From a virus (lineage: Duplodnaviria; Caudoviricetes), in IMG/VR virus record IMGVR_UViG_3300038393_000863, positions 1 to 48,226 of that record: 48,226 nucleotides of DNA. One strand, written 5' to 3'. Numbering within the stretch: the first letter of the stretch is position 1; each line of letters starts with the position of its first letter. The translations under genes and the position numbers were made by a program. Below, in pieces: positions 1 through 48,226 of this stretch. The notes below the pieces were generated by a model that was given only the letters and a program-made list of their open reading frames with translations, searched no databases and had not been told where the DNA came from.

Positions 1-130
1 TACGCGCCGCTCAGGGACGCGCCGCTCAGGTCCGCGCCGCTCAGGTCCGCGCCGCTCAGGTACGCGCCGCTCAGGTACGCGTCCCTCAGGTACGCGTCCC
101 TCAGGTACGCGCCCCTCAGGTACGCGCCGC
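1..130. repeat. 15-bp tandem repeat (TCAGGT(A/C)CGCG(C/T)C(G/C)C) encoding pentapeptide repeats
   Basis: Directly visible tandem units; the same unit occurs at 47985-48226. Confidence 0.95.
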
Positions 131-245
131 TGCCAACCGCGGCTTCCACCGCGCGTTGCACCTGAAGGTGAAGCGGCGTGGTGTCCGCGATGACGGCCGT
201 GAAAGGCACGGCTGCGCCCCAGCGGGACTTGATTTGGATTTCCAT
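1..245 (-). CDS. Pentapeptide-repeat protein, N-terminal part (runs off the window start; probably continues at 48226)
   Basis: Manual translation from ATG at 245: [75 protein letters not shown]..., i.e. A(D/Y)L(S/R)(G/D) pentapeptides; not in the ORF track because it is truncated. Confidence 0.85.
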   Translation of the reverse strand, partial: MEIQIKSRWGAAVPFTAVIADTTPLHLQVQRAVEAAVGSGAYLRGAYLRDAYLRDAYLSGAYLSGADLSGADLSGASLSGA

Positions 246-298
246 GCGTTTCGGCCCTCCCGAGCCATCATCAGGGACGCGGGATCAGCGTCCGACGC
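246..298 (-). ncRNA. Hammerhead ribozyme, type III (HHR1)
   Basis: Minus strand: GCGUC^GGACGC UGAUCCC GCGUCC CUGAUGA U GGCUC GGGA GGGCC GAAAC GC, then AUG; complete core, three stems, GUC site (cut 294/293). Confidence 0.92.
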
Positions 299-319
299 GG
301 CCCAGCCCCAGTTAAGAGG

Positions 320-333
320 CTGGGCTAATGCAG
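320..333. promoter_or_regulatory. CTG-N8-CAG box (CTGGGCTAATGCAG), candidate operator
   Basis: One of at least 10 related, mostly intergenic 14-mers. Confidence 0.6.
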
Positions 334-340
334 CGATTGA

Positions 341-907
341 CTAGGCGGCCAGCGGGGCAACCGCTTTGGCCACCTTGCGGGCCTTGGCGATGGCGTAGCG
401 GTCAGACGCCTCGACACGGCCGAACTCGGCGACCAGTGCCTTAGCGAGCGGGGCGAACCGCCAGACGTTCGCCTCAGTGAACGCCCGCTGATGGTCCGGG
501 AACTTGCCGTGGGTCCCGAACGCCTCCGCTTGGCCGATGACCTCGCAGAGGACCAGCGCAGCCATGGCGGCCACGTCGCGGCCGTCACCATAGAGGCGGA
601 CCAGATGGGCGACTTGGACGAAGGCCGCTTCGCGCTCGCCGTCGCGGGTGAACGGCAGGGCGTACCGATAGTGCGCCCAATCGTGCCACGCGCGGAACGC
701 CCAGTTGACTTCCGGGGAGCCGAAAATGGTGTCGTCGGAAGCACCGGCCCAGACAACCGCGGGGCCACTGTCCCAAGCCGCCTTGAGGTCAGCGAGGGTT
801 GACGGCGCGGTGTCCCGCGGGGTGAACCCCAGCGGAAACAGACGTCCCGCCAGGGTGAGAACGGCAGCGTCTAGCTGCGCGTTCACGGGTTCACGGAAGG
901 GGCTCAC
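341..907 (-). CDS. Early protein with FRAWHDxxH motif (possible zincin-like metal-binding protein); paralogue of 45193-45813
   Basis: NWAFRAWHDWAHYRYALPFTRDGE aligns with QFRAWHDWVHYRFGAAFTMPGE of the other copy. Confidence 0.75.
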   Translation of the reverse strand: MSPFREPVNAQLDAAVLTLAGRLFPLGFTPRDTAPSTLADLKAAWDSGPAVVWAGASDDTIFGSPEVNWAFRAWHDWAHYRYALPFTRDGEREAAFVQVAHLVRLYGDGRDVAAMAALVLCEVIGQAEAFGTHGKFPDHQRAFTEANVWRFAPLAKALVAEFGRVEASDRYAIAKARKVAKAVAPLAA

Positions 908-1074
908 AGCCGGTGCTCGCGGGTGAACGAGCGGGGTTCCGCGGAGGGGTCCCGCTTGACCTCGTAACGGCCCTTGGGGTCGACGGATCGGGCTTCCCGG
1001 AGCACGCGCTTAGCGCCCGCCAGGGTCAGGTAACCCGACACGACCTCACGGCCGCCCGAATACAGGGCGTACAT
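904..1074 (-). CDS. Small early hypothetical protein (56 aa, MYALYSGGREVVSGY...)
   Basis: Manual translation; purine-rich leader after HHR2; stop overlaps the next start (GTGA). Confidence 0.65.
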   Translation of the reverse strand: MYALYSGGREVVSGYLTLAGAKRVLREARSVDPKGRYEVKRDPSAEPRSFTREHRL

Positions 1075-1092
1075 GGTCGGTTCTCTCTGTTG

Positions 1093-1145
1093 GGGTTTCG
1101 GGCGTGCTCGCCCATCATCAGCGCGCCAGCGTCAGGCGCGGACCC
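1093..1145 (-). ncRNA. Hammerhead ribozyme, type III (HHR2)
   Basis: GGGUC^CGCGCC UGACGCU GGCGCG CUGAUGA U GGGCG AGCA CGCCC GAAAC CC; all stems Watson-Crick (cut 1141/1140). Confidence 0.93.
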
Positions 1146-1168
1146 GAGCCCAGCAGCGGGTTAGGCCA

Positions 1169-1182
1169 CTGGGCTGTCACAG
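1169..1182. promoter_or_regulatory. CTG-N8-CAG box (CTGGGCTGTCACAG)
   Basis: Intergenic, about 24 nt upstream of HHR2 on the minus strand. Confidence 0.55.
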
Positions 1183-1185
1183 CGG

Positions 1186-1359
1186 TTAGCGGCTACGATG
1201 GGGTTCCACCTCTTGAACCCAGACGTTGCCAGCGTAGCCATAGGCGAGGAGCTTCCGGCGATCCTTCTCCGCCTTCGCCTCAGCAGCTTCATATTTGCGG
1301 TGCAGAGATAGAACGCCACTTTGGGCCGGCGTAGTAGCCCACTTCACGACTGCGAACAT
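1186..1359 (-). CDS. Small early hypothetical protein (57 aa, MFAVVKWATTPAQSG...)
   Basis: Manual translation; GGAGG upstream; fills the gap between neighbours. Confidence 0.65.
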   Translation of the reverse strand: MFAVVKWATTPAQSGVLSLHRKYEAAEAKAEKDRRKLLAYGYAGNVWVQEVEPHRSR

Positions 1360-1362
1360 GGC

Positions 1363-1560
1363 CTATCCCTCCACCCCGCAAGCCCGCAGGAAACGCCCGC
1401 GGTCAAACAGCGGGTTCGTACTGCGGAGTTCGGCGGCGAGTGTCATCGCCACCTCATCGCAGGCGCGGCCCCACACCATCGCCTCAGACGGGCGGGTGAA
1501 GATTTGCGAACGTGAGGCGCGCACAGCCTCAGCGATCAACACGTAGTCTTTGCGGGTCAT
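1363..1560 (-). CDS. Small early phage protein (MTRKDY...NPLFDRGRFLRACG)
   Basis: ORF track; GAAGGGAAG upstream of ATG 1560; NPxFDxxRF-type C-terminus common in small phage early proteins. Confidence 0.75.
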   Translation of the reverse strand: MTRKDYVLIAEAVRASRSQIFTRPSEAMVWGRACDEVAMTLAAELRSTNPLFDRGRFLRACGVEG

Positions 1561-1585
1561 GGCCCGGCTTCCCTTCATGGTTGAT

Positions 1586-1637
1586 GCGTTTCGCCCTGCC
1601 GGGTCATCCTCAGGGGTGCGGCATCAGCACCCGACGC
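1586..1637 (-). ncRNA. Hammerhead ribozyme, type III (HHR3)
   Basis: GCGUC^GGGUGC UGAUGCC GCACCC CUGAGGA U G(A)CCC GGCA GGGC GAAAC GC; one bulged A in stem II (cut 1633/1632). Confidence 0.88.
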
Positions 1638-1656
1638 TAGACCTTGGCGGACACCG

Positions 1657-1670
1657 CTGGGTTAAACCAG
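1657..1670. promoter_or_regulatory. CTG-N8-CAG box (CTGGGTTAAACCAG, within the palindrome CGCTGG..CCAGCG)
   Basis: Intergenic, 20 nt upstream of HHR3. Confidence 0.6.
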
Positions 1671-1673
1671 CGA

Positions 1674-1910
1674 TTATGCAATCATGCTCTTGACGGTGAT
1701 CCCGTCGATATGGACGGAGCCGCCCCGCCGCACATCCCATTCGGTCACGCGGTCAAAGCGGAGCTGATCATCCGCCCATGCATCCATGGCCGCGTCGCCA
1801 CGTTCCTTGGCCTGCCGCCAACCGGCCATGCTGAAAGCGTTCTTAGCACCCTGCCAAGTGGCGTAGCCCTTGACCTGTCCCTTGTGATTGATGACGGCGA
1901 AGCGGTGCAT
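1674..1910 (-). CDS. First early gene, hypothetical (78 aa)
   Basis: ORF track; AGGAGG in loop II of HHR4 upstream. Confidence 0.75.
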   Translation of the reverse strand: MHRFAVINHKGQVKGYATWQGAKNAFSMAGWRQAKERGDAAMDAWADDQLRFDRVTEWDVRRGGSVHIDGITVKSMIA

Positions 1911-1911
1911 A

Positions 1912-1964
1912 GCGTTTCGGCCCTCCTAGGCCATCGTCAGGGGATCAGGATTAGACCCCGACGC
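1912..1964 (-). ncRNA. Hammerhead ribozyme, type III (HHR4)
   Basis: GCGUC^GGGGUC UAAUCCU GAUCCC CUGACGA U GGCCU AGGA GGGCC GAAAC GC U AUG (cut 1960/1959). Confidence 0.92.
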
Positions 1965-2177
1965 TTGCTTCCGCTGGAAACCAGACCGTGGGCCTAACCC
2001 ACGTTGCGCCTCAGGAGAGAGGGGAGCCCCGGCCTTGCGGCTTGTCTCCCTTTGTCCCGAGGATCAGGCCCGTAACCGGGCACGCCTACCAGACGGTTTG
2101 AACTTGCGTTCTGCCGGGGCCGGACAACCGGCCTAGGGGCTGAGCCGGAGCGGCGCTTGTCCGCTGCGACAGCCCAG

Positions 2178-2206
2178 TAACTAGGCTAGCCCAGCGATCA
2201 TGTCAA
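2178..2206 (-). promoter_or_regulatory. Host sigma70-type early promoter, overlapped by two CTG-N8-CAG boxes (2164-2177, 2181-2194)
   Basis: Minus strand TTGACA-17 nt-TAGTTA directly upstream of the early cluster. Confidence 0.7.
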
Positions 2207-2749
2207 CACCCCTCAACCTGCGGCGGGTAATCACGTGTCTGTGATCGCCTACTGGGCGAACCCATTAACTGGGCAAGCCCCATAGATGGCTCAAGAGGCC
2301 TCTTTGAGTGGTTCAGGTAGGGTAGTAGCCGGGCACCCTCCAAAGGCCCTGTAGCGCCCGGAAATCGGCCTTTAAACCGGTATCCGCTGCAAACCCTAGG
2401 GTTCAGCCGACCAAACCCCGCCGTTGCCCCTGCCGATAACCCTCCGGCTATCAACCCGGCCCCCTCCGATAGCCCCGAGGCTATCAGCCTGATTGCCCCG
2501 CAGGGTGTCCCGCAGGATGCACCGGCAGGTGAACCCGCAGGGGTTGGGTTCCTATGCATGTCCCCATGACGTGTCTAGGAAGCGGCCCTTTCCTATGCAT
2601 GTCAGGGCCAGGACGAAAAAAGCAGGGGACAATGAGCGCATGGGCCGAACCATCAATGAGCCCGGACACGCCTTGCGGGACCACTAGTGGTGCAGGATGG
2701 CACGCCTAGAGGGAATGCACCTTAGGAAAATCAATTAGTTGGCGATCAG

Positions 2750-3232
2750 TATGGAGTGGCCTTAGGCGTAGACTGTGCCAAGGCCCATCGCTTTCGGCCT
2801 GCCCCCGGCCTGTTGAGGCCCGGACCCCCACGGGGGGAACTGCGCGGGCCGCTGAACGCGCATCAGGCTGCGCTATTTCGACCCCAAAACCATCAGCCCC
2901 TTACCGAGCGGGAAGGTTTGTCAGAAGGAGTCCACATATTTCTGACAATCTGACCGAGCGGGATGACGACCCCTGCCGGTTACACCTGAGGGTTCTCCTT
3001 CGGGTTCCCCTGAGGGTTCCCCTATGGGCCTCGGCCTCCCGGCCTTCGGCAAGACAGGGTTGTAGGAGAAGGTCTCTTACTACTCTAGGCTGACACCTTA
3101 AGGTATATACCAGGGAACCTCCTCCGGTTCACCAGCCAGGGAAACCAGCCAGTGAACCAGTAGGTGGGTAGGTAGGGTAGTAGGTAGGTCTACACACCCT
3201 GAGGTGAACCTTGAGGATCACCTTAAGATGTA
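2750..3232. other. Putative terminal-repeat/concatemer-junction region
   Basis: Non-coding, between the large terminase stop and the early promoter as in T7; short CCT(G/T)(A/G)AG-type repeats at ~2985-3228, inverted repeat TTGTCAGAA..TTCTGACAA at 2918-2949, duplicated CCGAGCGGGA. Confidence 0.5.
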
Positions 3233-3235
3233 CCC

Positions 3236-4978
3236 CTAGGCATCACCCCAGGATTTCCGGCGGGTGACCCTTCCAGTGGGCCTGCCTACAGCCCGACCTC
3301 GGCCCTTCTGGGCCAGCCGGTCACCGAAGATGGTGCCCTTGAAGAACTCCCGCTCGAAGGCCTCATCCTGCTTCCGCTGCCATGACTCCTCCGCCTTGTT
3401 GGCGTCGGCGTTCATGTACGGAGCCCAGTACTCCAGAGCTTGGGCCAGCACGTCGATGAGGTCGTCGTGCTTTAGAGCACCCTTCTGCTCTGTCAGGTGG
3501 GTGAGCTGGTAGAGGCCCCGGTGGATGTTCGACGGGTTTGCCAGGTCGGCCCTGGCGGCTGTCGTGTCGAGGACCAACCGGTGTTGCTGGAGGGCAGGGC
3601 GGACCAGCGCCATCATGCGCTGCTCTTTCATCCCCGTGACCTTGTAGCCTTCGACCGTGACCGGGTAGACCCGAGCCACGACAGGCTCCAGCAGGGCGGT
3701 GAACATGCCGTCCCCGAAGTTGTCTTCCACGCCGATGTGGTTGACCTCCTCGTCCCTGGCGATCTCCGCCAAGGCCCTGAGGGTCTCCGGGCTGAACCCT
3801 TCCTGGAAGCCGCCCCAGCGCCGGATGTAGACCCAGCCGTTGAGGAACTTCGTGACCACGTAAGCGGTCCGGTCCTTGCCCCGACCCGAGGGGTCGATGT
3901 GCAGAGCGGAGCCGGTGAAGGGGACGAACTCGTTGGAGGCGAACAGCGGCCGATACATGCGGTCGCCGTCGAACCCGACGTTCGCCAGGTCCTTGTGGAC
4001 CTTCTCGGGGTCCTGACCCCAGACGAGCCGGATGGGAGCCAGCCGCTTGTCGACGTCCGTGACGATGAGGTCGCGGGTCTTTAGCGGATAGCGTTCGGCG
4101 TCGGTGAGGGTGGTGTCGAGCTGGTACTGGAGGAGGAAGCCGGCGCTGCCGCGCTTCAGCTCCTTGCCCTGGAGCACGAGCTCGTTGAACCGGATCGGGT
4201 TGGTAGGTGCTCCGCCCACCGTGGACCCCACCGGTTTCATCAGGTCGGGGTTCTCCTCGATCTCCTTCAGGAGGATCGGGGCGAGGGTCCCGTCGTAGTG
4301 GTGGAGCTTGTCTCGGAGGGGATAGCGGCCGGGCCAGACCCGGATGTCGTAATCCTGCTCCCGGAGCCCCTTGTAGATGCTCTCGAAGCTCTGCGGGGTC
4401 CCGAGATAGATGATCTCGGAGTCCGGCTTGGCGATGTCGCCGTACTCACCGATGAGGTGCCGCAGCTTGTCCCGCTGGGTTTCCGTCTGGGAGTTCTTGG
4501 GGACCTCGACGTCGTCCGAAATGAGGATGTCGGAGCGCGAGCCGGTGAGCTGGCCGGTGATCCCCACGGTCTTTACGGAGGGGGACTTGTCGGGGACCGC
4601 GGGACCAACGTCGAACGCCATGGTGGACGTCCGCTGGTTCCCCTTGGAACGGAGCTCCTTCCAGAACTCCTCGCCGGCCGGGTGATCGATGATCTGCTTG
4701 ATGAGGGTCGCGTTCTCGACCGCGAGGTCCTCGTTCGCAGAGACGATCAGGATTTTGAGCTGGGGGTTCTTCCACAGACGCCACACCACGTAGGCGCACG
4801 TCAGGAAGCTCTTGCCGACTCCTCGATACGCCTGGATGAAGCGACTGGGCGGTCCCTCGGCCAGGTAGCGACCGATGTCGAGCTGGAGCCGGTCAGGCGG
4901 CGGCAGCTCTAGGACGAACTTCCAGACGTACCAGAGGAAGCGAAGGAAGTCGGCCTTCAGGATGTCCGCGGAGGACAT
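3236..4978 (-). CDS. Terminase large subunit (T7 gp19-like)
   Basis: FIQAYRGVGKSFLT Walker A, GITGQLTGSRSDILISDDVE, LGTPQ, IDPSGRGKD nuclease motif, HDDLIDVLA. Confidence 0.97.
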   Translation of the reverse strand: MSSADILKADFLRFLWYVWKFVLELPPPDRLQLDIGRYLAEGPPSRFIQAYRGVGKSFLTCAYVVWRLWKNPQLKILIVSANEDLAVENATLIKQIIDHPAGEEFWKELRSKGNQRTSTMAFDVGPAVPDKSPSVKTVGITGQLTGSRSDILISDDVEVPKNSQTETQRDKLRHLIGEYGDIAKPDSEIIYLGTPQSFESIYKGLREQDYDIRVWPGRYPLRDKLHHYDGTLAPILLKEIEENPDLMKPVGSTVGGAPTNPIRFNELVLQGKELKRGSAGFLLQYQLDTTLTDAERYPLKTRDLIVTDVDKRLAPIRLVWGQDPEKVHKDLANVGFDGDRMYRPLFASNEFVPFTGSALHIDPSGRGKDRTAYVVTKFLNGWVYIRRWGGFQEGFSPETLRALAEIARDEEVNHIGVEDNFGDGMFTALLEPVVARVYPVTVEGYKVTGMKEQRMMALVRPALQQHRLVLDTTAARADLANPSNIHRGLYQLTHLTEQKGALKHDDLIDVLAQALEYWAPYMNADANKAEESWQRKQDEAFEREFFKGTIFGDRLAQKGRGRAVGRPTGRVTRRKSWGDA

Positions 4979-5146
4979 CTCGGCTGCCGGGCGGGTCGAA
5001 CTGGTCGAACCCAGCAGCTCAGACCGAGAAGTCAGATTGGATACCGGTTTGCTGACTCAGGGAAGCCCGTACAGGGCACTTGCGGGGTGCCCCGGTAGGG
5101 TAGTAGCCGGAGACCCTTAGCGGGGCTGTACGGGCTTCTGAGAGGC

Positions 5147-5656
5147 TTAGTTGTAGCGGACGGTGCCGACGATATCGCCGGACGAACCGGCGGTGGCACC
5201 CGCGGCGTCCGTGGTCACAGCCCACGAGAGGCCCGAGGAGCCAGCCACGGAGATCGACTGGCCGGGGTCCACGGTCTTACCCGTGGCAATCGGCACGGTA
5301 TAGACCGGGGTGTCCGTGCCGGGCACACCCGCGGTGGCCTTGTCGTAGACCTGGAAGTAGCGGGTGGCAGCGTTCGTGTTCAGGAGCACGAAGTTCGTCA
5401 TCTTGCCGGCCGAGGCCTTGATGACACCCGCCGCGCCGGTCGAGATGCGCGAAAGCGCTTGGTCCGCCACTTCGTTCAGCGAGATGGTGACCGTCGCGTC
5501 AGCGCCGAGCGCCGACACCACGACGCCATCGCCGACATCCGTGAAGCTCACGTTGCCAACGCCCGAGACGTTCACCGACTGGACGGAGGCCTTCTGGGTG
5601 GGGATGCGGAAGGTCGTGTCGCCGGACTTGGCGGCATAGGTTACTTTGGTGGTCAT
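5147..5656 (-). CDS. Beta-rich hypothetical protein, possibly virion-associated
   Basis: Thr/Ser/Gly/Val-rich 169 aa between the terminase genes; N-terminus resembles that of the tail fibre. Confidence 0.65.
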   Translation of the reverse strand: MTTKVTYAAKSGDTTFRIPTQKASVQSVNVSGVGNVSFTDVGDGVVVSALGADATVTISLNEVADQALSRISTGAAGVIKASAGKMTNFVLLNTNAATRYFQVYDKATAGVPGTDTPVYTVPIATGKTVDPGQSISVAGSSGLSWAVTTDAAGATAGSSGDIVGTVRYN

Positions 5657-5665
5657 GGAGGTCTT

Positions 5666-5956
5666 TCAGTGGGCTGAGACGCCGCGTTGGGCCTCAGCAT
5701 CGAGGTCGAGATCGCGGAGGAGACCGGCCATGCGGTCCTTCCGTTCGGATTGGGCGGGGCTGTCGACCCCGTTCTGGCCGAGGAACTTCATCACCTTGTC
5801 CAGGAGCTGGGGGTTGATGGGCTGGCCGGGATGGGTCTTGCCCTCATCGTCGGTCCAGTCCTTCGACCGCTCGATGGCGGCCTGGAGTTCATCCGCCAGG
5901 GCACCCGCCAGTAGCCCGTGGAGGGCGTCTAGCTGGGCTTCGGTAGCTCGGCTCAC
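5666..5956 (-). CDS. Terminase small subunit (T7 gp18-like)
   Basis: ATEAQLDALHGLLA...LLDKVMKFLGQNGVD pattern, size and position. Confidence 0.8.
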   Translation of the reverse strand: MSRATEAQLDALHGLLAGALADELQAAIERSKDWTDDEGKTHPGQPINPQLLDKVMKFLGQNGVDSPAQSERKDRMAGLLRDLDLDAEAQRGVSAH

Positions 5957-6041
5957 GGTCGGACGTACTCAGCCAGGCGGGACGTGAACACGCCCCACCG
6001 GAGGGCGAGGGCCATAGCCCCCGCCAACAGGTGCCGGCGCA

Positions 6042-6269
6042 TCAGTGATGCAGGCCCGGAAACAGGAAAGCGCCCACGGCGGAGACGGCCGACCCAATCG
6101 CCGCAGCGAAGCCGAGCCCGTAGGCCCGACCCCGCTCCAGCTTGGAGATGCGCTCGTCGTGGTCGTCCATGCGGGCCTCGGCCTTCGCCTGCGCCGCGAT
6201 GAAGGTGTCTACCTTCGCCTCGATGCGGCCCAGCATGTACTCTGTGGAGTTCTGGGGATTGTCTTCCAT
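6042..6269 (-). CDS. Small coiled-coil plus C-terminal TM protein (holin/XhlA-like)
   Basis: LGRIEAKVD...RISKLE followed by a hydrophobic segment; located after the tail fibre. Confidence 0.6.
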   Translation of the reverse strand: MEDNPQNSTEYMLGRIEAKVDTFIAAQAKAEARMDDHDERISKLERGRAYGLGFAAAIGSAVSAVGAFLFPGLHH

Positions 6270-6279
6270 TGCACTCTTA

Positions 6280-6293
6280 CTGGGGTAATGCAG
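6280..6293. promoter_or_regulatory. CTG-N8-CAG box (CTGGGGTAATGCAG)
   Basis: Intergenic, directly after the tail fibre stop. Confidence 0.55.
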
Positions 6294-6296
6294 CGA

Positions 6297-15432: not shown

Positions 15433-15910
15433 GGGGCTCATACCGGGCGAAGGTGAAGAACAAGCGACCCTCCCGCCCGTGGTTGGGATGGGCCTCTGTG
15501 AGGCGGAAACCGAGCCACTCCAGCCACGCGGCCGACTGCCCGTTGCGGGCGTCGATGTAGTTCCAGAGGAGCGGGAAGCGGTCGTGCATGGCGCGGAGGT
15601 AATCCCACCCACGCTTCAGGAAGGAGCGGGCGATGCGGATCAGACCCGGCGTGCCGAGCATCCAAACATTGCCCGCCCCCACCAGCGGAGTCGGCGCGAC
15701 GCCAAAGGCGCACACCGGCCGCGTGTCGTGTAGGACGATCCACGCCAGCTCGGAGGCCACCACGGAGCCCACTAGGGACTCCAGAGGCCCGAGCTCGGAC
15801 GTGGCCCGGAGCTCAACCAGGTCCGCCGGCCGCAGGTTTGCGGCCATGTCGATGAGCCAATCCCGAAGCTGCTCAGTGGTAGCCTCGGAGACGGGGATGA
15901 CTTCGATCAC
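15425..15910 (-). CDS. gp13-like internal virion/acetyltransferase-fold protein
   Basis: NLRPADLVEL...GNVWMLGT...LWNYIDARN...WLEWLGF. Confidence 0.8.
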   Translation of the reverse strand: MIEVIPVSEATTEQLRDWLIDMAANLRPADLVELRATSELGPLESLVGSVVASELAWIVLHDTRPVCAFGVAPTPLVGAGNVWMLGTPGLIRIARSFLKRGWDYLRAMHDRFPLLWNYIDARNGQSAAWLEWLGFRLTEAHPNHGREGRLFFTFARYEPHV

Positions 15911-16302
15911 CGACTTTCAATCCAATCGGCTATGCGGCGGAGCTCCTCAGCAGTCCCATCGTTCTTTAGGCGATTGGCTCTCTGTGAGATCACCGCCACA
16001 TTTCCTGGAACATAGCCCAGCTCAGGCCGCAGGCGGTCGAGGCTGGGACTATGATCCGCAGGCTTGCCAGTGCGGCTTTTCGCGAGAGGAATGCCTAGGA
16101 TTGGACAATGGGTCGGGATTTGGACGTCTGCCTTCGTTATGTTGAAGGGGACGCCCTTTGCTCGTGCGCGTTGGCGAGCATTGTTGAACAAGACAGTCTC
16201 TGGATGACTAGCCGTCCAGAGACGGTCTTGAAGCCTAGCCTTCTCAGGGTCCCTTGCGCGCTCCGCCGCCTTACGGCGTCGGTCCTGCTCAAGTGTTCTC
16301 AG
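15907..16302 (-). CDS. HNH-like endonuclease 1 (start uncertain: CTG 16302 or TTG 16191)
   Basis: ARQRARAKGVPFNIT...CPILGIPL...SPSLDRLRPELGYVPGNVAVISQRANRLK; frame open back to a CTG overlapping the upstream TGA. Confidence 0.8.
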   Translation of the reverse strand: MRTLEQDRRRKAAERARDPEKARLQDRLWTASHPETVLFNNARQRARAKGVPFNITKADVQIPTHCPILGIPLAKSRTGKPADHSPSLDRLRPELGYVPGNVAVISQRANRLKNDGTAEELRRIADWIESR

Positions 16303-17936
16303 CCCCTAGACCTATTCCAAAAAAAGGCTTCCCATTCGGCTGATTGGAAAGAGCACCCGAAGATGCTGTCATTGATGATGTCGACCACGCTAGTATCGGC
16401 GTTGGAGTAGACCTGGATCGGGTGTCGTCCCTTCTGGAACTCCGCCGAGGCACCCGGCGTGAAATCGCCGAGCTCCCAGCCGGTGTAGTAGCCGGTGACC
16501 GGCTCACCCTTGTTCAGGCCATAGGGCCAGACCTCCCAACGGTAGTTGGTGGTGTCCTTGAACGAGAGCGTCAGGGTTCGGAGCTGGAGCCGGCCACTGG
16601 TGACCGAGGTCCCGTCACCCCGCTTGAGATACGGCCGGGAGAACCGGTAGCGGAACTCGTAGGGGTAACCGACGAAGCACTTGTGGCTGTAATCGCCCGG
16701 CACCTTGACGGTGTGCGCGTCGATCCAGGCCCACACGCTGCGGTTCGGCACCTCCTTCAACGTCTGGTCCCCGAAGGCGTCCGAGCGGACGATCTTGAAG
16801 TCGTTCCGATGGTCGACGTCGTAGGGGATCGCGAAGGTGGTCGTGCCAGAGACCGAGTCGTAGACCCCGGTGACTTCCGCGCGGTCGTCTAGGTAGAGCT
16901 GAGTGGGTGAGCCGGTGGGTGCCACGTTGGCTTCGAGCTGGAGCCTTTCGAGGTACATGCCGGTGGACCGCTGGAGGACCAGATAGAGGTAGCCGTCCAC
17001 GTAGGTCCCGGACTTCACCGTCACGTCGGACGGGAACTCCCACTGGTGCCAGGAGGACTGCGCCTTCGTGTCCGAGTTCAGCCAGTAGAATTGGTAGACG
17101 TAGACCGAATGGGGTGCCCCGGAGGTCAACACAAAGAGCGCGTTCTGGTCTGCCGCGGGGATGATCTGGAAGACACCCGCGGGGACATAGCGGGGGACGT
17201 GGGCGGTGATGTTGGCCGCCGCCGTGGCGTCCGAGCTGGTGGCGTGGGTGTACTCGTAGACGAGCGAGTGGCCCGCCTGCCCCGAGGGGAAGTAGACCTC
17301 CGAGTTCATCGTCACGGGCTGGCAGTTGCCAACTTCGTAGTTGGTGACCGGGCGGATCGCGACCGAGGAGGGCGAGACGCCGTTCTCCCCGTTGGTCAGG
17401 GAGAACTGGGTCTGGTCGGCGAACAGCATGATCCCATCGTTGAAGGGGACCGCGTCCCGTAGGATGGAGACCTTGTTGGAGCTCGCTGCGAACTCCAGGA
17501 CGTCGGAGTCGATGTAGTCGAGGACCGTGGTTCGCCAGAAGTCGCCGTACTCCCCAGCGCACGAGAGGATGATCTTCTCGTCGTAGAGGAAGGCCAGGCG
17601 GTTCTGATAGAAGAACACGCCCGAGATGTTCCGGCCGATGAAGCCAGGGCGGGGGTTCGTGTCGTCGTCGCCGACCCTCCGGTTGTCCCAGGTGAACGGC
17701 GTGAACAGGAAGCTCCCGTCCGCTTGCCGGATCAGAGCATGGGGCATCGTCGTCGCATCGATGACGTTCTCCAGCGACGGCGCGACCGTCTCATCCCACA
17801 CACCGTCAGAGCTGTATCGGACGTAGTAGGAGATGAAGTTCGTGTCGGCCCCGCCGACGACCTTGTAGAGGTCGCCAACCAGGGGGCTTGCTGGGAGCTT
17901 GTCGAACCGCTGGACGACCCCCGTCAGGGTGGTCAT
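16299..17936 (-). CDS. Tail tubular protein B (gp12), C-terminal part
   Basis: TMPHALIRQADG, RRVGDDDTNP, FFYQNRLAF, ITAHVPRYVP, QSSWHQW, GRLQLR; ATG at 17936 overlaps the upstream stop (ATGA). Confidence 0.9.
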   Translation of the reverse strand: MTTLTGVVQRFDKLPASPLVGDLYKVVGGADTNFISYYVRYSSDGVWDETVAPSLENVIDATTMPHALIRQADGSFLFTPFTWDNRRVGDDDTNPRPGFIGRNISGVFFYQNRLAFLYDEKIILSCAGEYGDFWRTTVLDYIDSDVLEFAASSNKVSILRDAVPFNDGIMLFADQTQFSLTNGENGVSPSSVAIRPVTNYEVGNCQPVTMNSEVYFPSGQAGHSLVYEYTHATSSDATAAANITAHVPRYVPAGVFQIIPAADQNALFVLTSGAPHSVYVYQFYWLNSDTKAQSSWHQWEFPSDVTVKSGTYVDGYLYLVLQRSTGMYLERLQLEANVAPTGSPTQLYLDDRAEVTGVYDSVSGTTTFAIPYDVDHRNDFKIVRSDAFGDQTLKEVPNRSVWAWIDAHTVKVPGDYSHKCFVGYPYEFRYRFSRPYLKRGDGTSVTSGRLQLRTLTLSFKDTTNYRWEVWPYGLNKGEPVTGYYTGWELGDFTPGASAEFQKGRHPIQVYSNADTSVVDIINDSIFGCSFQSAEWEAFFWNRSRG

Positions 17937-24316: not shown

Positions 24317-24319
24317 GGC

Positions 24320-39294: not shown

Positions 39295-41769
39295 TTAGGC
39301 AAAAAGGTACTCGGCTTCCAGGACCTGGCTCAGGTCGAGGTCGCCAAGCGGTGGGATCGGCGGAAGCGTCTTGGCGAGCGCCTCGGGGAGCTGCGCCACG
39401 AGCTCATCCCGGAACTCCTCCAGGACATTGGGCTGGTACTGCCGCACGAAACTCGCCCGGAGCACCTGAGCCAACAAGCCAGCATCCGCGGCGTGAACCC
39501 CGAAGCTATCGTGGATCACCGCGAAGTGCTCCAGGCCGTACCCGTGGAGGTCGTTTATGACCGCCATCAGGTGGGCCGCGTCGAGCGAATGGACGAAGTT
39601 GGGCGCGATGCCGTTGGCCTGAGCCCGGCGGTTGATGCGCTCATCGTCCACCGCCAGCGTGAGCTGCATCGGCTGGCCGTTGTAGTGGATGCCGACGATC
39701 TTCCCGCGGACGGTCCGGTAGGCTTGGAGGACGGGAAACCCGGAGGGGGCCGTCCACCAGATGGGCTTGTCCGACAGGCTGGCGATGCGGGCCGCTGTGC
39801 GGAGCCACTCCATGGCTGAGGATGCCGCAGACACGGTCTCGGAGATCACCTCCCACAGTACGTGGGAGAGCCAGCTCGCGGCGTGGTAGTTGTCCGCCCC
39901 TTCGAGGTGGGGTGGCAGACCGGCCTCCTGGTTCTCCTTGTCGAGCTCGCGGAGGGACAGGAGGATCATGTCCTGCATCCCGAACCGGGTCGCGGAGTAA
40001 CAGTAGGTCATGCATGGCCGCTTGGTGATCTTGCGGATCACCTTGCCGCCGGCCCACGGGTTCGGCACCTCGCGGAGCCGGTCCCCGCTCATAATGAACG
40101 GGGTGGCGGCCGCGATGGCTTGCGCCTTCTCGGCGACCCGCGAGTAGATGTCCTCGGGCTGGTCGATGGGAAGCAGGTTGACCGCGCGAGCTCCGGTGGG
40201 GTCTCGGAGCATGGCGCTGAAGTGCTGGAGCCCGGAGTTCGACCCATCGAGCGCGATGGGGATGTGGGAGACCCAGTCCTCACCTTCGTCGGCGTAGCCG
40301 GCCCACTCCATGCACGCCGCCAGGGCGCAGTATGGGCTGTCGGCGGTCGTCCAGAAGCGGCCCCCGCCTAGCGGGTCTCGCCCGCTGTCGAGGATGGCGT
40401 CCTGGTTTGCGATGACCCAGTCGAGCCGGTCTTCGAACGACACCTTGTCGACCCCGAACAGATTGGCGAGGTGGACTGCCAGCCATCCCCCGCCACCCGG
40501 TCCAAGAGCCTTTCCATCAGCGAACTCGATGAGGGCCTTGGCGGCGTCATCGCCTTGCGGATGCGGGCCGCCGCTCGGGATAGGATAGACCCGGCCCCGG
40601 AAGTCGAGCTCGTGGGGAAAATAGATGCGTTCTTCATCGGCGAACTTCTGAGCGATCCATAGGCGTTGCTGGAGGGCGAGCCGGGAGGACATCGAACGGG
40701 CGTTCCGCTGGTGCGTCTGGGCGGCTTCGGCCTTCCAGCGCTTCTTGGCGTCTTCGTCAGTATCGAAGTCGACGGGTTTCGCCGGGACTAGCTCGTCCTC
40801 CCGGCGAGGGAGACCCCCAAGGCTGCCCCCGCCGTCCCACACCTCGCGCATCACGTCGAGCACCCGGCGGTTGATCCGCCAGGGCGTCTCTTGGATCGCG
40901 TTGATGGCCGCGTAGACCTCCGGCATGGGGTTCGACCGGAGCTCCTCGTGATAGGCGGAGTTCCATTGCTTCACCATCCGCAAGCCGGGGCGCTTGGTCA
41001 GGTAGCCCCCCGTGAAGGGGGACCGCCAGCGCTTGGGTCTGACGACCATCGGCAGATGGATCGGCTCTAGGATTTCGCAGCGGGCGTGCTGGCGCTCCAG
41101 CCAGGTCTGGACGGCCTCCGCCGGCCTGATCTTGTAGGAGCTACCCTTGCGGCCCGGCTCCAGCTCCATCGTGAACAGGCCGGTCGTCTCCACCAGGAGC
41201 TCGATGGCCTTCATGCCCCCGTGGAGCTGCTGAACCTTGCTGAACTCGATGCGGACATCCTCCTTGCGCATGATGTCCTTGCGGGCCTCACGCATCTTGG
41301 AAGACTGCTTGCCGCTCTTGGCCTTGCCGACCAGACCATCATAGCCCGGCCGGTTCGTGCCCTTGAGGGCAGCCATTTCAGCATGGTCGATGATCGCAGC
41401 GGCGATCTCGAAGGCGACTCGCTGAACAGAGGGCTCCGTAGCCGCCGCATTCACAACGATGCGCGCGGTCAGGTAGGCGATCTGCTCAGGGGTCGCGAGG
41501 CTCAGGAGCTTCAAGGCATCAGGGCGGCGGCCGGCTCCGCCGCTGGAGACCCGCTCCACGAACTCGCGGATGGCCTCGGCGGTGGGCTCGATGGCTTGCT
41601 TCATGAGCTGCCGGCCGGGCGGGAGGTCTGCCTCCTCATCGACCCCGGCGGTATCAGTGCGCCAGGGGAGGGGGCGGCGAGCTCGGTAGCGATCAGCGCC
41701 TAGGGCGCGGGACTCGTTCTCAAGGTCGAGCTGTTGGCGGACCTTGTCGCGGAACGTGGTGTCACTCAC
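39295..41769 (-). CDS. Single-subunit phage RNA polymerase (T7 gp1-like)
   Basis: LDFRGRVYP, LDGSNSGLQH, RKITKRPCMTYCYS, APNFVHSLDAAHL, IHDSFG. Confidence 0.98.
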   Translation of the reverse strand: MSDTTFRDKVRQQLDLENESRALGADRYRARRPLPWRTDTAGVDEEADLPPGRQLMKQAIEPTAEAIREFVERVSSGGAGRRPDALKLLSLATPEQIAYLTARIVVNAAATEPSVQRVAFEIAAAIIDHAEMAALKGTNRPGYDGLVGKAKSGKQSSKMREARKDIMRKEDVRIEFSKVQQLHGGMKAIELLVETTGLFTMELEPGRKGSSYKIRPAEAVQTWLERQHARCEILEPIHLPMVVRPKRWRSPFTGGYLTKRPGLRMVKQWNSAYHEELRSNPMPEVYAAINAIQETPWRINRRVLDVMREVWDGGGSLGGLPRREDELVPAKPVDFDTDEDAKKRWKAEAAQTHQRNARSMSSRLALQQRLWIAQKFADEERIYFPHELDFRGRVYPIPSGGPHPQGDDAAKALIEFADGKALGPGGGGWLAVHLANLFGVDKVSFEDRLDWVIANQDAILDSGRDPLGGGRFWTTADSPYCALAACMEWAGYADEGEDWVSHIPIALDGSNSGLQHFSAMLRDPTGARAVNLLPIDQPEDIYSRVAEKAQAIAAATPFIMSGDRLREVPNPWAGGKVIRKITKRPCMTYCYSATRFGMQDMILLSLRELDKENQEAGLPPHLEGADNYHAASWLSHVLWEVISETVSAASSAMEWLRTAARIASLSDKPIWWTAPSGFPVLQAYRTVRGKIVGIHYNGQPMQLTLAVDDERINRRAQANGIAPNFVHSLDAAHLMAVINDLHGYGLEHFAVIHDSFGVHAADAGLLAQVLRASFVRQYQPNVLEEFRDELVAQLPEALAKTLPPIPPLGDLDLSQVLEAEYLFA

Positions 41770-42746: not shown

Positions 42747-43844
42747 CTACACGAGCTCCAGAAGATCAGACGGGGCCAGGTGGGCGTAGCTATTCCAGGT
42801 CACCTTGATGTCGCTGTGACCCGCGAAGCGGCTGATCTTGTGGATCGGAACGCCGTCCTTGGCAAGCCGGGTGAGCTTGGTGTGCCGCAGCGAATGGATC
42901 ACGACATCGCTGATGTCGATCCCTTGCGCCTTCATGTCGTCCCGCAGGTTGTCCCACATGTACCAGGGCGTGGAGCCCTTGAAGGGGAACAGCCGGCCAT
43001 CCACCGCAGCGAGCCGCAGGTAGGCCAGCTCGGCGACGGAGGAGGCGGCCAGCGGGAGCTGGCGCGGCTTGTCGTTCTTGGTGCGATAGCGGCGGAAGTG
43101 GACGAACGTCACCGTTCGGCCCTCGACCTCACGCTCCTCGATGTCCTCCTCCCGCACGTTCAGGGCCTCGCCCAGGCGCGCGGCCGTGTCCAGCAGGAAG
43201 CGCACCATGGCCCTGAACCGCCGCCAATCGCGCTGCGGCTCGTCCTTGATGCGGCGGTCGAGGGTCTCGAATAGAGCGACCTCCTCCTCGGGGCTGAGGA
43301 CACGCTCCCGCGCCCCCTTGGCCGTGATGGTCGGCATCTTCGGCTTGCCCGTGATGATTGGGCGGCCGGAGCTGTCCTCCCAACGCGTGGCGAGCGACAG
43401 AGCCTTGCCGACCATGTCGATCTTCCGCTTCACGGTGCCGGCGGCATAGCCCTTGGCGAACAGGTCGGCCGAGAGCTGCTCGATGCGCCCCGCCGTCATG
43501 TCGGCCACCGGCACGTCGCCGATCATGGCCCTGAGGATTTTCAAGTTGGACTTGATCGTCTTCTGGGACTTCGCCTCGCGGGGCGACCAGACGGTCAATT
43601 CGCAGCGACGGAACAGCTCATCCATCGTGACGCCGTTACCGGTCTTAGGTGGCGGCTGGGCTGACCCAGCAGTCGGGACAGAAGAAACCGGCGCTGAGGC
43701 CGGCGACAGACCCATCACGATCTCACGGGCCTTGATCCGCGCCTGAACCTTGTCGCGGGTGTGGGTGCTCGCGCGTCGGCGTTTCCCCTGGTCATCCAGG
43801 TAGTCAACTGCCCAGATACCGCTGGGCTTCTGGTAGAGGTTCAT
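42747..43844 (-). CDS. int: Tyrosine integrase
   Basis: Catalytic R (TAARLGE), K (TKND), HSLR, GH, Y (NSYAH); N-terminal arm-binding-like segment. Confidence 0.95.
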   Translation of the reverse strand: MNLYQKPSGIWAVDYLDDQGKRRRASTHTRDKVQARIKAREIVMGLSPASAPVSSVPTAGSAQPPPKTGNGVTMDELFRRCELTVWSPREAKSQKTIKSNLKILRAMIGDVPVADMTAGRIEQLSADLFAKGYAAGTVKRKIDMVGKALSLATRWEDSSGRPIITGKPKMPTITAKGARERVLSPEEEVALFETLDRRIKDEPQRDWRRFRAMVRFLLDTAARLGEALNVREEDIEEREVEGRTVTFVHFRRYRTKNDKPRQLPLAASSVAELAYLRLAAVDGRLFPFKGSTPWYMWDNLRDDMKAQGIDISDVVIHSLRHTKLTRLAKDGVPIHKISRFAGHSDIKVTWNSYAHLAPSDLLELV

Positions 43845-44293
43845 TCGGTGTCTCCCAAACGTAGGGCCTTCAGGATGTTCTCAACCGCCTCGACCCCGTC
43901 TGGGGTCAGGTGAAGCGTCTTGCGGCGGCGGTCGTCCTGATCCTCGACCGCGGTGACCCAGCCAAGCGCATCGGGCATGGACGAGCGGGGCTCACGGAAC
44001 GTGTCCATGGTCCGCTCAATCGACTGCCCGATGACGGATTGGCCGGAAGGGGTTTCCCCGCCAAGCCTCTGTAGGTCCTTCAGCGTGATCTCACGCCGCA
44101 TCGCGTCCGCGTAGGCGACGAACAAGAACGCTAGCACCTGGCGGGCGGTGGTGCGGTCAGGTAGCTCCCGTGTCAAAGTCGCTACCGCCGCTGCCAAACG
44201 CTCTAAGTCGCCTGCGGAAGTTGCTGACAAACTCCGCGGCGTCTTCACCCGGCCTCCGCGCGGCTGGGGCCTCCGATCCGGCATTTGAAGCAT
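43841..44293 (-). CDS. MarR-like winged-helix regulator (possible repressor or directionality factor)
   Basis: QVLAFLFVA...ITLKDL...LGWVTAVEDQDDRRRKTLHLTPDG; coupled to the integrase (ATGA). Confidence 0.8.
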   Translation of the reverse strand: MLQMPDRRPQPRGGRVKTPRSLSATSAGDLERLAAAVATLTRELPDRTTARQVLAFLFVAYADAMRREITLKDLQRLGGETPSGQSVIGQSIERTMDTFREPRSSMPDALGWVTAVEDQDDRRRKTLHLTPDGVEAVENILKALRLGDTE

Positions 44294-45826: not shown

Positions 45827-45840
45827 CTGGGTTTATGCAG
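45827..45840. promoter_or_regulatory. CTG-N8-CAG box (CTGGGTTTATGCAG) overlapping the kinase stop
   Basis: Matches the repeated motif. Confidence 0.55.
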
Positions 45841-46501
45841 CGATCAGGACCGGCAACTGCCGCTCCTGGCCGCGCACGTTCTTGCTGATCTTGGTCGAGA
45901 GCTCACGCGAGGAGCTTCCCGAGGTGATGTAGCCGGCGGGGTCGGTGATGACCACACGACCATCAGGAGCGACCATCACGTTCTCATCGTGGAGGTCGGA
46001 GTCGGCCTCCAGCAGGATGAAATCCACGATGTCTCGGAGCAACCGGTACAGCTCAGGCCGCGTGTGCTCCAGGTGCCTCACGGTCGGCGTGTACTTCCGG
46101 TACTTCAGGTTCCTGAGTGCCGAGACCATCTCGGAGTATTCGATACGCTGCGGATTGTTCGACTCCCTACTGATGGTGTGGTCCATCCGCTCGATCCGCG
46201 CGACGTAGAAGTCACCGAACCACTCCAGAGACTTCACTTGGAGCGCGTAGGGATTGCCGACATGGCGGGTCATCACGAGCGCGGCGAATGCCGGCCAAGC
46301 GTCGAGTTTGCCCCCGCCGACCTTGAGGACGTCGGGCTGGCCATCCTTCTCATAGACGTTGCCGAACGTGCCTTCGCCGATGAGCTCCCAGCCATTCTGC
46401 TCAAGGCGTATCTCGAAGGCACCCTTGGACTCGCCCGGACGGGGCACATCAGAGGCACCTTGGTGGACAGGCCACCAGGGAAGCAGGCCAATGCCGAACA
46501 T
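45833..46501 (-). CDS. Ser/Thr protein kinase-like (T7 gp0.7-type)
   Basis: LIGEGTFGNVY, VLKV, DLHDENVM, VITDP; likely start ATG 46501 after GGAGAG. Confidence 0.88.
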   Translation of the reverse strand: MFGIGLLPWWPVHQGASDVPRPGESKGAFEIRLEQNGWELIGEGTFGNVYEKDGQPDVLKVGGGKLDAWPAFAALVMTRHVGNPYALQVKSLEWFGDFYVARIERMDHTISRESNNPQRIEYSEMVSALRNLKYRKYTPTVRHLEHTRPELYRLLRDIVDFILLEADSDLHDENVMVAPDGRVVITDPAGYITSGSSSRELSTKISKNVRGQERQLPVLIAA

Positions 46502-46538: not shown

Positions 46539-46609
46539 GCCACGGCCATCGGCCCGGCGGTTAGGCCGGGCCTAGGTTTCGCTGGGGTCTCACCAGCTCG
46601 TCAGGTGGC
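46539..46609 (-). ncRNA. Hammerhead ribozyme fold, type I, with non-canonical GCC site (HHR6)
   Basis: GCCAC CUGACGA GCUGG UGAGACC CCAGC GAAAC C UA GGCCCGGC CUAACC GCCGGGCC GAU GGCC^GUGGC. Confidence 0.7.
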
Positions 46610-47619: not shown

Positions 47620-47684
47620 GCCGCGACCATCGGGGACCCATGAAGGTCCCCTAGGTTTCACCCTAGACGGGCTCATCAGGCGGC
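47620..47684 (-). ncRNA. Hammerhead ribozyme, type I (HHR5)
   Basis: GCCGC CUGAUGA GCCC GUCUA GGGU GAAAC C UA GGGGACC UUCAUG GGUCCCC GAU GGUC^GCGGC (cut 47625/47624); G-U at the base of stem II. Confidence 0.8.
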
Positions 47685-47739: not shown

Positions 47740-48226
47740 TCACCACAGCTCTTGCTTGGCCTGCCCCTCAAGGAACCGGATGATCCTCAGCGTCTCGGCA
47801 GCCTTGGGGCTATCCGGGTACTCGGCCTTGACGTGCGCCTTGAACTCAGCCGCCGTGAACGTACGGCAACCGGCGCGGATCACCGGCTTGGAGTCCGTCA
47901 TGTCGAACATGATGAACTCGTAGCCATCCGAGCGATAAGCACGGCCGATGACCCGCGAGATGACCAGCTTGGGCTTCTCTTTAGTGCCCCTCAGGTACGC
48001 GTCCCTCAGGTCCGCGCCGCTCAGGTCCGCGCCGCTCAGGTCCGCGCCGCTCAGGTCCGCGCCGCTCAGGTACGCGCCCCTCAGGTACGCGCCCCTCAGG
48101 TACGCGCCGCTCAGGTCCGCGCCCCTCAGGTCCGCGCCCCTCAGGTACGCGCCGCTCAGGTCCGCGCCGCTCAGGTACGCGCCGCTCAGGTCCGCGCCCC
48201 TCAGGTCCGCGCCCCTCAGGTACGCG
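47740..48226 (-). CDS. Pentapeptide-repeat protein, C-terminal part
   Basis: About 16 A(D/Y)L(S/R)G units, then [24 protein letters not shown]...[22 protein letters not shown]...QELW*. Confidence 0.85.
47985..48226. repeat. 15-bp tandem repeat encoding pentapeptides
   Basis: Directly visible; same unit as 1-130. Confidence 0.95.

What the first reader, a model, noticed from the sequence alone, without database searches (positions are those of the whole stretch)
246..1964. Array of four type III hammerhead ribozymes punctuating the early operon of a T7-like phage
Seen: four intergenic minus-strand elements (246-298, 1093-1145, 1586-1637, 1912-1964). Each has a GUC site, a 6-bp stem I with a 7-nt loop, CUGANGA, an extra U, stem II with a 4-nt loop, and GAAAC closing stem III. 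The stem sequences differ between copies while pairing is kept. All are sense to the early transcript and lie directly upstream of a gene. Known: T7 cuts its early polycistronic mRNA with host RNase III at equivalent intergenic positions, and isolated hammerheads have been reported in phages. Inference: this phage processes its early mRNA autocatalytically into mono/bicistronic units with 5'-OH ends, which are poor substrates for 5'-monophosphate-dependent RNase E decay. With two more copies near 46.5-47.7 kb this would be a host-independent mRNA-processing system; I do not know of one described for Autographiviridae.
Basis: partly seen in the sequence, partly recalled or inferred. Interest (0 to 1): 0.95.

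Follow-up and report, generated by a model that had tools for sequence, protein, structure and literature searches.

The report
Phage hammerheads with built-in ribosome sites
Four hammerhead RNA motifs sit between the first genes of a T7-like phage and likely cut its early message into gene-sized pieces, a layout known from prophages since 2011; two of them also hold a predicted ribosome-binding site inside the ribozyme, which recurs in related phages and might tie cutting to translation.

Summary
Four type III hammerheads lie at the stated positions on the minus strand, with full cores (2 hits in 200 shuffled genomes). Their loops I and II pair, and the pairing covaries across relatives. The two further copies are type I; the one at 46539-46609 has C16.1 and probably cuts poorly. 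The window is a whole, likely temperate, T7-like phage related to Caulobacter phage S2B. Seven of 8 closest relatives found by protein search carry hammerheads in this region; the eighth has a 17-bp hairpin there.

The processing idea is plausible but not new. Perreault et al. 2011 described clustered prophage hammerheads, showed cleavage and proposed the same role, and this scan found such arrays before on other DNA, including a T7-like phage.

The fresh detail: copies followed at once by a start codon carry GGAGG in stem-loop II (14 of 14, against 3 of 50 without GGAGG; one clade), and loop I is changed to match. Cleavage, expression and any effect on stability or translation are untested; no RNA run was listed. 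S2B and LKA1 are cultured test cases.

The parts
1911..1965 (-). Type III hammerhead, first of the array; predicted cut 1960/1959; loop I UAAUCCU pairs with loop II AGGA; GGAGG at 1926-1922; ATG follows at 1910
1586..1637 (-). Type III hammerhead; predicted cut 1633/1632; loop I UGAUGCC pairs with loop II GGCA; stem II bulged, one base shorter than in L003
1093..1145 (-). Type III hammerhead; predicted cut 1141/1140; loop I UGACGCU pairs with loop II AGCA
246..298 (-). Type III hammerhead; predicted cut 294/293; loop I UGAUCCC pairs with loop II GGGA; GGAGG at 260-256; ATG follows at 245
47620..47684 (-). Type I hammerhead with full core; predicted cut 47625/47624; lies behind the pentapeptide-repeat gene
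46539..46609 (-). Type I hammerhead-like element with C16.1 (GCC triplet), probably weak or inactive; its counterpart before the kinase gene in L003 has GUC
2178..2206 (-). Candidate host-polymerase early promoter (TTGACA, 17 nt, TAGTTA) overlapped by a palindrome; inferred from position and from similar sites in L002, L003, L107; not called by the consensus scan
300..325 (-). 10-bp hairpin 6 nt before the 294 cut; would cap the 3' end of the upstream piece
1147..1175 (-). 11-bp hairpin 6 nt before the 1141 cut; would cap the 3' end of the upstream piece
1674..1910 (-). First early ORF, 78 aa, no Pfam or PHROG match
1186..1560 (-). Two small ORFs (1363-1560, start taken from the L003 homologue; 1186-1359), no family match
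341..1074 (-). Two ORFs (904-1074; 341-907, phrog_7806, homologues in early regions of cultured Autographiviridae)
1..245 (-). Start of a pentapeptide-repeat gene (PF00805; matches phrog_31265 from profile position 1); the contig breaks inside the repeat
47740..48226 (-). End of the pentapeptide-repeat gene, inferred to continue the ORF that starts at 245
45833..46501 (-). Protein kinase-like gene behind the GCC element (phrog_15752, E 5.9e-17, annotated as a kinase acting on RNase III and RNase E)
42747..44293 (-). Transcription regulator (43841-44293) and tyrosine integrase (42747-43844): context, marks the phage as likely temperate
39295..41769 (-). T7-type single-subunit RNA polymerase, 60% identical to that of Caulobacter phage S2B: context

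Best explanation
These are hammerhead ribozymes that likely cut the host-transcribed early message of a T7-like phage, as it is made, into one- or two-gene pieces whose ends are predicted to be capped by structure. Shown: motifs, position, covariation, conservation. Inferred: a host promoter near 2206 starts one long minus-strand transcript; the first cut (1960/1959) removes a ~210-nt leader; further cuts give pieces of 327, 492 and 847 nt, then the pentapeptide-gene piece. Each downstream piece would begin with a 5'-OH directly on the 6-bp stem I, and two upstream pieces end in a 10-11-bp hairpin plus a cyclic phosphate. The pieces would then decay and be translated independently, the job that RNase III sites do in T7. 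In two copies the ribozyme also supplies the predicted Shine-Dalgarno sequence of the next gene.
For: Descriptor scan and shuffles. A pattern fixing only core letters gave 48 matches in 47 viral loci, 36 distinct, and all 48 have 6 of 6 stem I pairs. On 31 aligned copies (4 from the window, 27 hand-picked from the pattern and descriptor hits) 94.4% of cells pair and 14 of 19 pairs show two-sided changes, including 2 of 4 loop-loop pairs. Loop pairing: 49 of 54 positions in 18 distinct loop combinations, shuffled mean 34.4, maximum 45 in 10,000. Hammerheads in the same region of 7 of 8 closest relatives found by protein search. The eighth (G277, L119) has a 17-bp hairpin before its first early gene. 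Published arrays of this kind cleave in vitro and, cloned in E. coli, in vivo; a halovirus early transcript end maps within 3 nt of a hammerhead cut site (PMC3088659). A synthetic hammerhead insulator raises mRNA about twofold and protein two- to tenfold (PMC6206723).
Against: No cleavage or expression data exist for this phage. The promoter is not called by the consensus scan, and a single long transcript is assumed. Minimum-energy folds of the 1911-1965 copy alone and of the 246-298 and 1586-1637 copies in context give competing pairings. Most T7-like phages examined lack hammerheads: 8 of 9 hand-picked cultured phages, T7 among them, and 6 of 6 more distant Caulobacteraceae prophages, so the feature is dispensable for the family. 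Copy number varies from 0 to 6 within the clade, and two window copies carry defects. In 2011, 4 of 18 consensus-conforming hammerheads were inactive. Type I cuts leave no 5' hairpin on the downstream piece.
Confidence: 0.7

Rival explanations
1. Cleavage gates translation. In the GGAGG copies the Shine-Dalgarno sequence is held in stem II and the loop-loop contact, and stem III covers the bases up to the start codon; cutting releases stem III and opens the initiation region, so the gene is read mainly after the cut. This adds to the best explanation, it does not exclude it.
For: 14 of 14 distinct type III copies with GGAGG in stem-loop II have a start codon 3-4 nt after A15.1, against 3 of 50 without. 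Loop I reads UCC in 11 of the 14 and CC in all. Annotated starts abut the ribozyme in S2B (44985) and jiawei (41133). Computed unpairing of positions -7 to -1 rises from 0.46 to 0.89 (1960 copy) and from 0.71 to 0.81 (294 copy) after the cut.
Against: The 14 copies come from 9 records, 8 of them inside one terminase clade, so they are few independent events. Spacing of 10-11 nt is longer than the 6, 8 and 9 nt of other GGAGG sites in this phage. The folding ignores pseudoknots, and a copy without GGAGG (1141) shows a similar rise (0.52 to 0.84). Fast constitutive cutting would leave little to regulate, and compact packing alone could explain the overlap.
Confidence: 0.2
2. Cutting lowers expression: it uncouples genes from the promoter and hands the pieces to host nucleases, shutting early genes off quickly or silencing read-through in the prophage.
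For: Recalled, no call: the glmS ribozyme's 5'-OH product is degraded by RNase J1, and alphaproteobacteria encode RNase J. The reviews say processing could change stability in either direction (PMC6765202). The phage is likely temperate.
Against: Stem I begins at the first base of the product and hairpins precede two of the cuts, which points to protection. The lytic phage LKA1 also carries a copy.
Confidence: 0.12
3. The ribozymes are passengers of exchangeable gene cassettes or decaying relics with little present function.
For: Copy number and neighbouring genes vary among relatives; the window has one C16.1 copy and one with a shortened stem II; G277 has none.
Against: Stems differ between copies while pairing, core and loop contact are kept, and the first-gene copy recurs across the clade.
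Confidence: 0.08
4. Pairs of cuts give 5'-OH and cyclic-phosphate ends that are ligated into circular mRNAs, for example the pentapeptide gene between the type III copy at 294 and the type I copy at 47625.
For: The end chemistry fits ligation (established knowledge), and the bracket exists.
Against: Perreault et al. looked for spliced and circular products of such arrays and found none. No RNA ligase was matched among the 70 window ORFs scanned with PHROGs.
Confidence: 0.04
5. The elements are chance matches or DNA-level repeats.
For: Rfam finds nothing; folding z-scores of the four copies are unremarkable (-0.13 to -1.66).
Against: Shuffle control, one strand only, G-U pairs, two-sided changes in all helices.
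Confidence: 0.01

Closest known systems
Clustered hammerhead ribozymes flanking genes in prophages (Perreault et al. 2011, PMC3088659; Agrobacterium tumefaciens ardA triple, Azorhizobium caulinodans, Clostridium scindens)
   Same: Several same-strand hammerheads bracket single genes or short blocks in a temperate phage; a stem I/II pseudoknot is used; processing into gene-length mRNAs is proposed.
   Different: Here four type III copies of one subfamily with an extra U after A9 and loop-loop pairing, missed by Rfam, plus two type I copies; two copies hold GGAGG with the start codon directly behind. The sections read do not mention T7-like phages or an embedded ribosome site. The type II and III tables of Dataset S1 could not be seen.
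RNase III processing sites of the T7 early region (R1.1: PMC6121014; R0.3, R0.5, R1, R1.3 recalled)
   Same: Intergenic cut sites in the early polycistronic RNA of a T7-like phage, the first one before the first gene.
   Different: T7 uses a host enzyme on long hairpins and leaves 5'-phosphates (recalled); no hammerhead was found in T7 1-7000. Here the RNA would cut itself and leave 5'-OH.
HHphage of haloviruses HF1/HF2 (PMC3088659)
   Same: Hammerhead just before an early gene; a mapped transcript end lies within 3 nt of the cut site.
   Different: Single core-variant copy in archaeal viruses, 13 nt before the start codon.
RiboJ insulator (PMC6206723) and engineered hammerhead switches that free a masked ribosome site (recalled, no call)
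   Same: A hammerhead before a ribosome site standardises the 5' end and can raise expression.
   Different: Engineered; the ribosome site lies behind the ribozyme or in stem I, not in stem-loop II and the tertiary contact.

Membership tests
Hammerhead ribozyme, type III | Core CUGANGA and GAAA around a three-way junction | tested here: met
   All four copies; one extra U between A9 and G10.1
Hammerhead ribozyme, type III | NUH triplet with A15.1-U16.1 pair | tested here: met
   GUC in the four copies and in 47620-47684; not met by 46539-46609 (GCC), which is not filed as an intact member
Hammerhead ribozyme, type III | Three stems, stems I and II closed by loops, stem III open, supported by covariation | tested here: met
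Hammerhead ribozyme, type III | Tertiary contact between loops I and II | tested here: met
   Complementary and covarying loops; sequence evidence only
Hammerhead ribozyme, type III | Site-specific self-cleavage | not testable with these tools
   Needs in vitro transcription or RNA end mapping
Rfam hammerhead families | Score at or above the family's gathering threshold | tested here: not met
   No hit in the window or in L003, L115, L121, which carry such copies
Clustered prophage hammerheads (Perreault 2011) | Several hammerheads close together, sense to the genes, flanking single genes or short blocks | tested here: met
Clustered prophage hammerheads (Perreault 2011) | Phage or prophage context near an integrase | tested here: met
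   Integrase at 42747-43844; related prophages in Caulobacteraceae genomes
Clustered prophage hammerheads (Perreault 2011) | All copies cleave within a long native transcript | not testable with these tools
   Shown for three other arrays in the paper, not for this one
T7-like phages with lysogeny genes (S2B, LUZ100, Pasto) | Single-subunit RNA polymerase and T7-type terminase and virion genes | tested here: met
   PF00940, PF22530, PHROG matches
T7-like phages with lysogeny genes (S2B, LUZ100, Pasto) | Regulator and integrase between the early genes and the polymerase | tested here: met
T7-type RNase III processing sites | Long double-stranded hairpin at the intergenic site | tested here: not met
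   Only hairpins of 11 bp or less beside the hammerheads in the window; a 17-bp hairpin stands before the first early gene of G277

The most novel reading that the evidence does not exclude
A natural cleavage-gated translation switch: in a clade of T7-like phages of Caulobacteraceae the hammerhead's own stem-loop II is the Shine-Dalgarno sequence, held in the catalytic loop-loop contact while stem III masks the approach to the start codon, so the first early genes are translated only after self-cleavage, and the phage swaps such ribozymes with RNase III-type hairpins at the same slot.
Probability: 0.2. Interest if true: 0.75.

Novelty: new variant of a known kind. Interest (0 to 1): 0.45.

Why it matters
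Why phages carry self-cleaving ribozymes between genes has been open since 2011 (PMC6765202; PMC10085705). This case places them in the early region of T7-like phages, where T7 itself uses RNase III, and identifies cultured phages that carry them: S2B on Caulobacter CB15 with three copies and LKA1 with one. The question can be tested there with point mutants and RNA end mapping. The GGAGG copies give a specific prediction about translation. The subfamily is invisible to Rfam, so it is missing from routine annotation. The arrangement itself is not new.

Tried and rejected
Rfam: no hammerhead hit in the window or in 16 related loci.

Expression: no RNA holder listed. Laid contigs of five DNA runs showed no substitutions, so no strain-level selection test was possible.

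Whether the 2011 Agrobacterium or Azorhizobium prophages are T7-like: not settled. Dataset S1 is held only to page 300 of 1018 and the type II/III tables start at page 982; paper searches did not answer it; a search with the Pasto integrase found nothing.

First count of negatives rejected: in prophages the polymerase sits at one end and the early region at the other (L031 upstream is host DNA), so whole records or terminase-integrase intervals were examined instead. Seven viral records with 52-55% polymerase identity gave no hammerhead-like match with a type I/III core pattern, which cannot see type II; L005 (64%, 67% complete) also gave none. In one search only 150 candidates per genome were scored.

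Descriptor hits rejected: L025 (inside an ORF, weak stems) and L003 2930-3013 (alternative pairing of a core already counted). L098, 1 of 8 hits, did not pass the descriptor. The type II pattern was noisy: 22 of the 85 loci scanned passed.

No sigma-70 consensus promoter was called, and the only minus-strand terminator-like hit in 1-3400 (2003-1987) lies within the shuffle expectation. The leader 1960-2172 is not unusually stable (z -1.56) and has no blastn match in related loci.

No paper in the library holds hammerhead, ribozyme and Autographiviridae together; searches gave none on this arrangement in T7-like phages or on an embedded ribosome site. The library lacks most subscription papers.
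Full report
1. Observation. A hammerhead descriptor run over both strands of the 48,226-base window returned five hits, all on the minus strand: type III at 246-298, 1093-1145, 1586-1637 and 1911-1965, and type I at 47620-47684. Allowing C at position 16.1 added a sixth, type I, at 46539-46609. In 200 dinucleotide shuffles of the window there were 2 hits in all, and none as strict as the four. C17 lies at 294, 1141, 1633 and 1960. Rfam gives no hammerhead match at gathering score or at E up to 10. Three of the four copies fold alone into the hammerhead shape; the 1911-1965 copy does so only with its flanks, and two others show competing folds in context.

2. In each copy the 3' part of loop I is complementary to loop II: UCCU/AGGA, UGCC/GGCA, GCU/AGC and UCCC/GGGA. 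A pattern that fixes only core letters found 48 matches (36 distinct) in 47 loci of the viral collection, and all 48 have a fully paired stem I. Among 36 copies with a clear stem II (of 47 listed), giving 18 distinct loop combinations, 49 of 54 loop positions pair, against a shuffled mean of 34.4 and a maximum of 45. On an alignment of 31 chosen copies 94.4% of cells pair, and two-sided changes occur in all four helices including the loop-loop one; the U15-A41 pair is broken in 12 of 31. Related sequences inflate such shuffle tests, but sliding the partners drops pairing to 35-44%.

3. The genome. The window is a whole virus record with a T7-type RNA polymerase, terminase and virion genes, a regulator and a tyrosine integrase. 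Its nearest named relatives by polymerase are jiawei and Caulobacter phage S2B, about 60% identical. Both ends of the contig lie in a pentapeptide-repeat gene that starts at 245, so the early region likely runs from about 2170 down through the break to about 44,500. A candidate host promoter (TTGACA at 2206, TAGTTA 17 nt on) stands 247 nt before the first cut, and L002, L003 and L107 have similar sites 247-302 nt before theirs. The consensus scan does not call it. Close prophages lie in 9 of 401 Caulobacteraceae genomes searched with the terminase, which makes that family the likely host.

4. Distribution. Relatives found by protein search that fall in the window's terminase clade (13 rows, support 93/96) carry hammerheads between terminase and integrase in 7 of 8 cases: S2B 3, jiawei 1, L003 5, L004/L080 4, G008 2, G310 3, G330 3, G277 0. 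The other four relatives in the clade were found by ribozyme patterns and are not counted. L006 and L007 (60% polymerase identity) have 1 and 2. L003 has the same order as the window, three type III then two type I, and its copy before the kinase gene reads GUC where the window reads GCC. G277 has a 17-bp hairpin before its first early gene; one case only. Six more distant Caulobacteraceae prophages and seven more distant viral records gave none. Of nine hand-picked cultured phages only LKA1 has one, at 1502-1554, before ORF2; T7, Percy, Lo5R7ANS, Pasto, LUZ100, BB8, Scott and PY065YO380 have none in the 7-13 kb read. The trait is patchy in the family and dense in one clade.

5. The ribosome site. 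In the 1911-1965 and 246-298 copies ATG follows stem III directly, and loop II with the 3' strand of stem II reads AGGAGG or GGGAGG, 11 and 10 nt before ATG. Among 64 distinct type III copies, after leaving out duplicates, one false hit, the three loci selected by a GGAGG pattern and loci L130 onward, all 14 with GGAGG have a start codon 3-4 nt after A15.1, against 3 of 50 without. In an earlier count 30 of 36 copies with a distant start had a separate purine-rich site behind the ribozyme. Loop I changes with it, to UCC in 11 of 14. The starts are supported by annotation in S2B and jiawei, by the profile match from position 1 for the gene at 245, and by one gene that starts with ATG, GTG or TTG at that place in L121, L063 and L115. 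Against: the 14 copies come from nine records, mostly one clade; the spacing is longer than at the three other GGAGG sites among 20 starts looked at (6, 8, 9 nt); and the computed gain in accessibility after the cut is modest and also seen in a copy without GGAGG.

6. Mechanism. Shown: motifs, position, covariation, conservation. Inferred: one host-made transcript, cut while it is made into a leader and pieces of 327, 492 and 847 nt and onward. Each type III product would start with a 5'-OH on a hairpin, and hairpins of 10 and 11 bp stand 6 nt before the cuts at 294 and 1141. That 5'-OH ends resist the 5'-monophosphate route of RNase E, and that RNase J can attack them, is recalled and comes from no call. 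The synthetic insulator RiboJ raises mRNA about twofold and protein two- to tenfold (PMC6206723, passages). I put self-processing with protected ends at 0.7, cleavage-gated translation at 0.2 as an addition, silencing at 0.12, passenger status at 0.08 and circularisation at 0.04.

7. What is known. Perreault et al. 2011 (PMC3088659; passages, sections 6, 8 and the first part of 11, text of Figures S1 and S2, first part of Dataset S1) report hammerheads that flank single genes or short blocks in prophages, show cleavage for three arrays, propose gene-length mRNAs, describe pseudoknots in all three types, and note at least tenfold lower activity for changes at 15.1/16.1. [quoted passage not shown] LUZ100 has MarR-tRNA-integrase before its polymerase (PMC10134795, passages). 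Two proviruses with a T7-type polymerase show parts of that order together with hammerheads: L140, one type II copy before ArdA and an integrase, and L169, four copies before MarR, tRNA-Leu and integrase. The 2011 case may therefore be T7-like; I could not verify this, and the unseen type II/III tables bear on it. A 2019 review calls the purpose undefined (PMC6765202, passages). PMC13725137 (passages) links hammerheads to translation initiation in eukaryotic RNA viruses, not phages. PMC6121014, PMC6630229 and PMC10085705 were seen as passages. No held paper joins hammerhead, ribozyme and Autographiviridae. The scan's own notes list such arrays on other DNA, one in a temperate T7-like phage, and a type II copy with a ribosome site in its core; these are unchecked leads.

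8. Verdict. A real and clean array of a kind known since 2011. It is a variant worth recording: a subfamily that Rfam misses, with covarying loop pairing, a predicted ribosome site built into some copies, and cultured phages in which to test it.

Noticed in passing
window 320-333, 1169-1182, 1657-1670, 2181-2194, 6280-6293, 39278-39291, 42590-42603, 44529-44542, 45827-45840: A palindrome of the form CTGGGYTARCCCAG occurs 25 times with up to 3 mismatches (7.4 expected), often a few bases behind stop codons and inside the candidate early promoter; it precedes three of the four hammerheads and recurs in L003 and L119. Possibly the operator of the phage regulator.
   Followed up: partly
L001, L002, L107, L116, L195, early leaders: TCTTTGACA-led motif 23-24 or about 170 nt before the first hammerhead, resembling the rRNA antitermination boxA (label recalled); absent from the window's leader.
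   Followed up: partly
L119 (G277:C3), before the first early gene: 17-bp hairpin with UUCG loop and a second hairpin, in the slot where relatives have the first hammerhead; candidate RNase III site.
   Followed up: partly
window 45833-46501: Kinase-like gene matching a PHROG annotated as regulating RNase III and RNase E, directly behind the GCC hammerhead variant.
   Followed up: no
window 341-907 and 45193-45813: Two paralogous early genes (both phrog_7806); L003 has both too.
   Followed up: no
window 16299-18454: The tail tube B-like gene is in two frames (profile positions 1-144 and 247-791 of phrog_457), next to an endonuclease VII-like ORF at 15907-16191; frameshift, split gene or assembly error.
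   Followed up: no
window 20984-24874: A 1110-aa and a 184-aa ORF without PHROG match stand between the scaffold and major capsid genes.
   Followed up: no
L002 (OR464703): The phage jiawei, deposited with a Mycobacterium host, falls in a terminase clade with Caulobacter phage S2B and Caulobacteraceae prophages; the host label looks doubtful.
   Followed up: no
L116 9803-9861: Type III copy with an extra A instead of U after A9 and loop II GGAA in a prophage whose terminase has an internal stop.
   Followed up: no
window 45138/45486: One contig of run X2 joins these places on opposite strands; single contig, may be an artefact.
   Followed up: no
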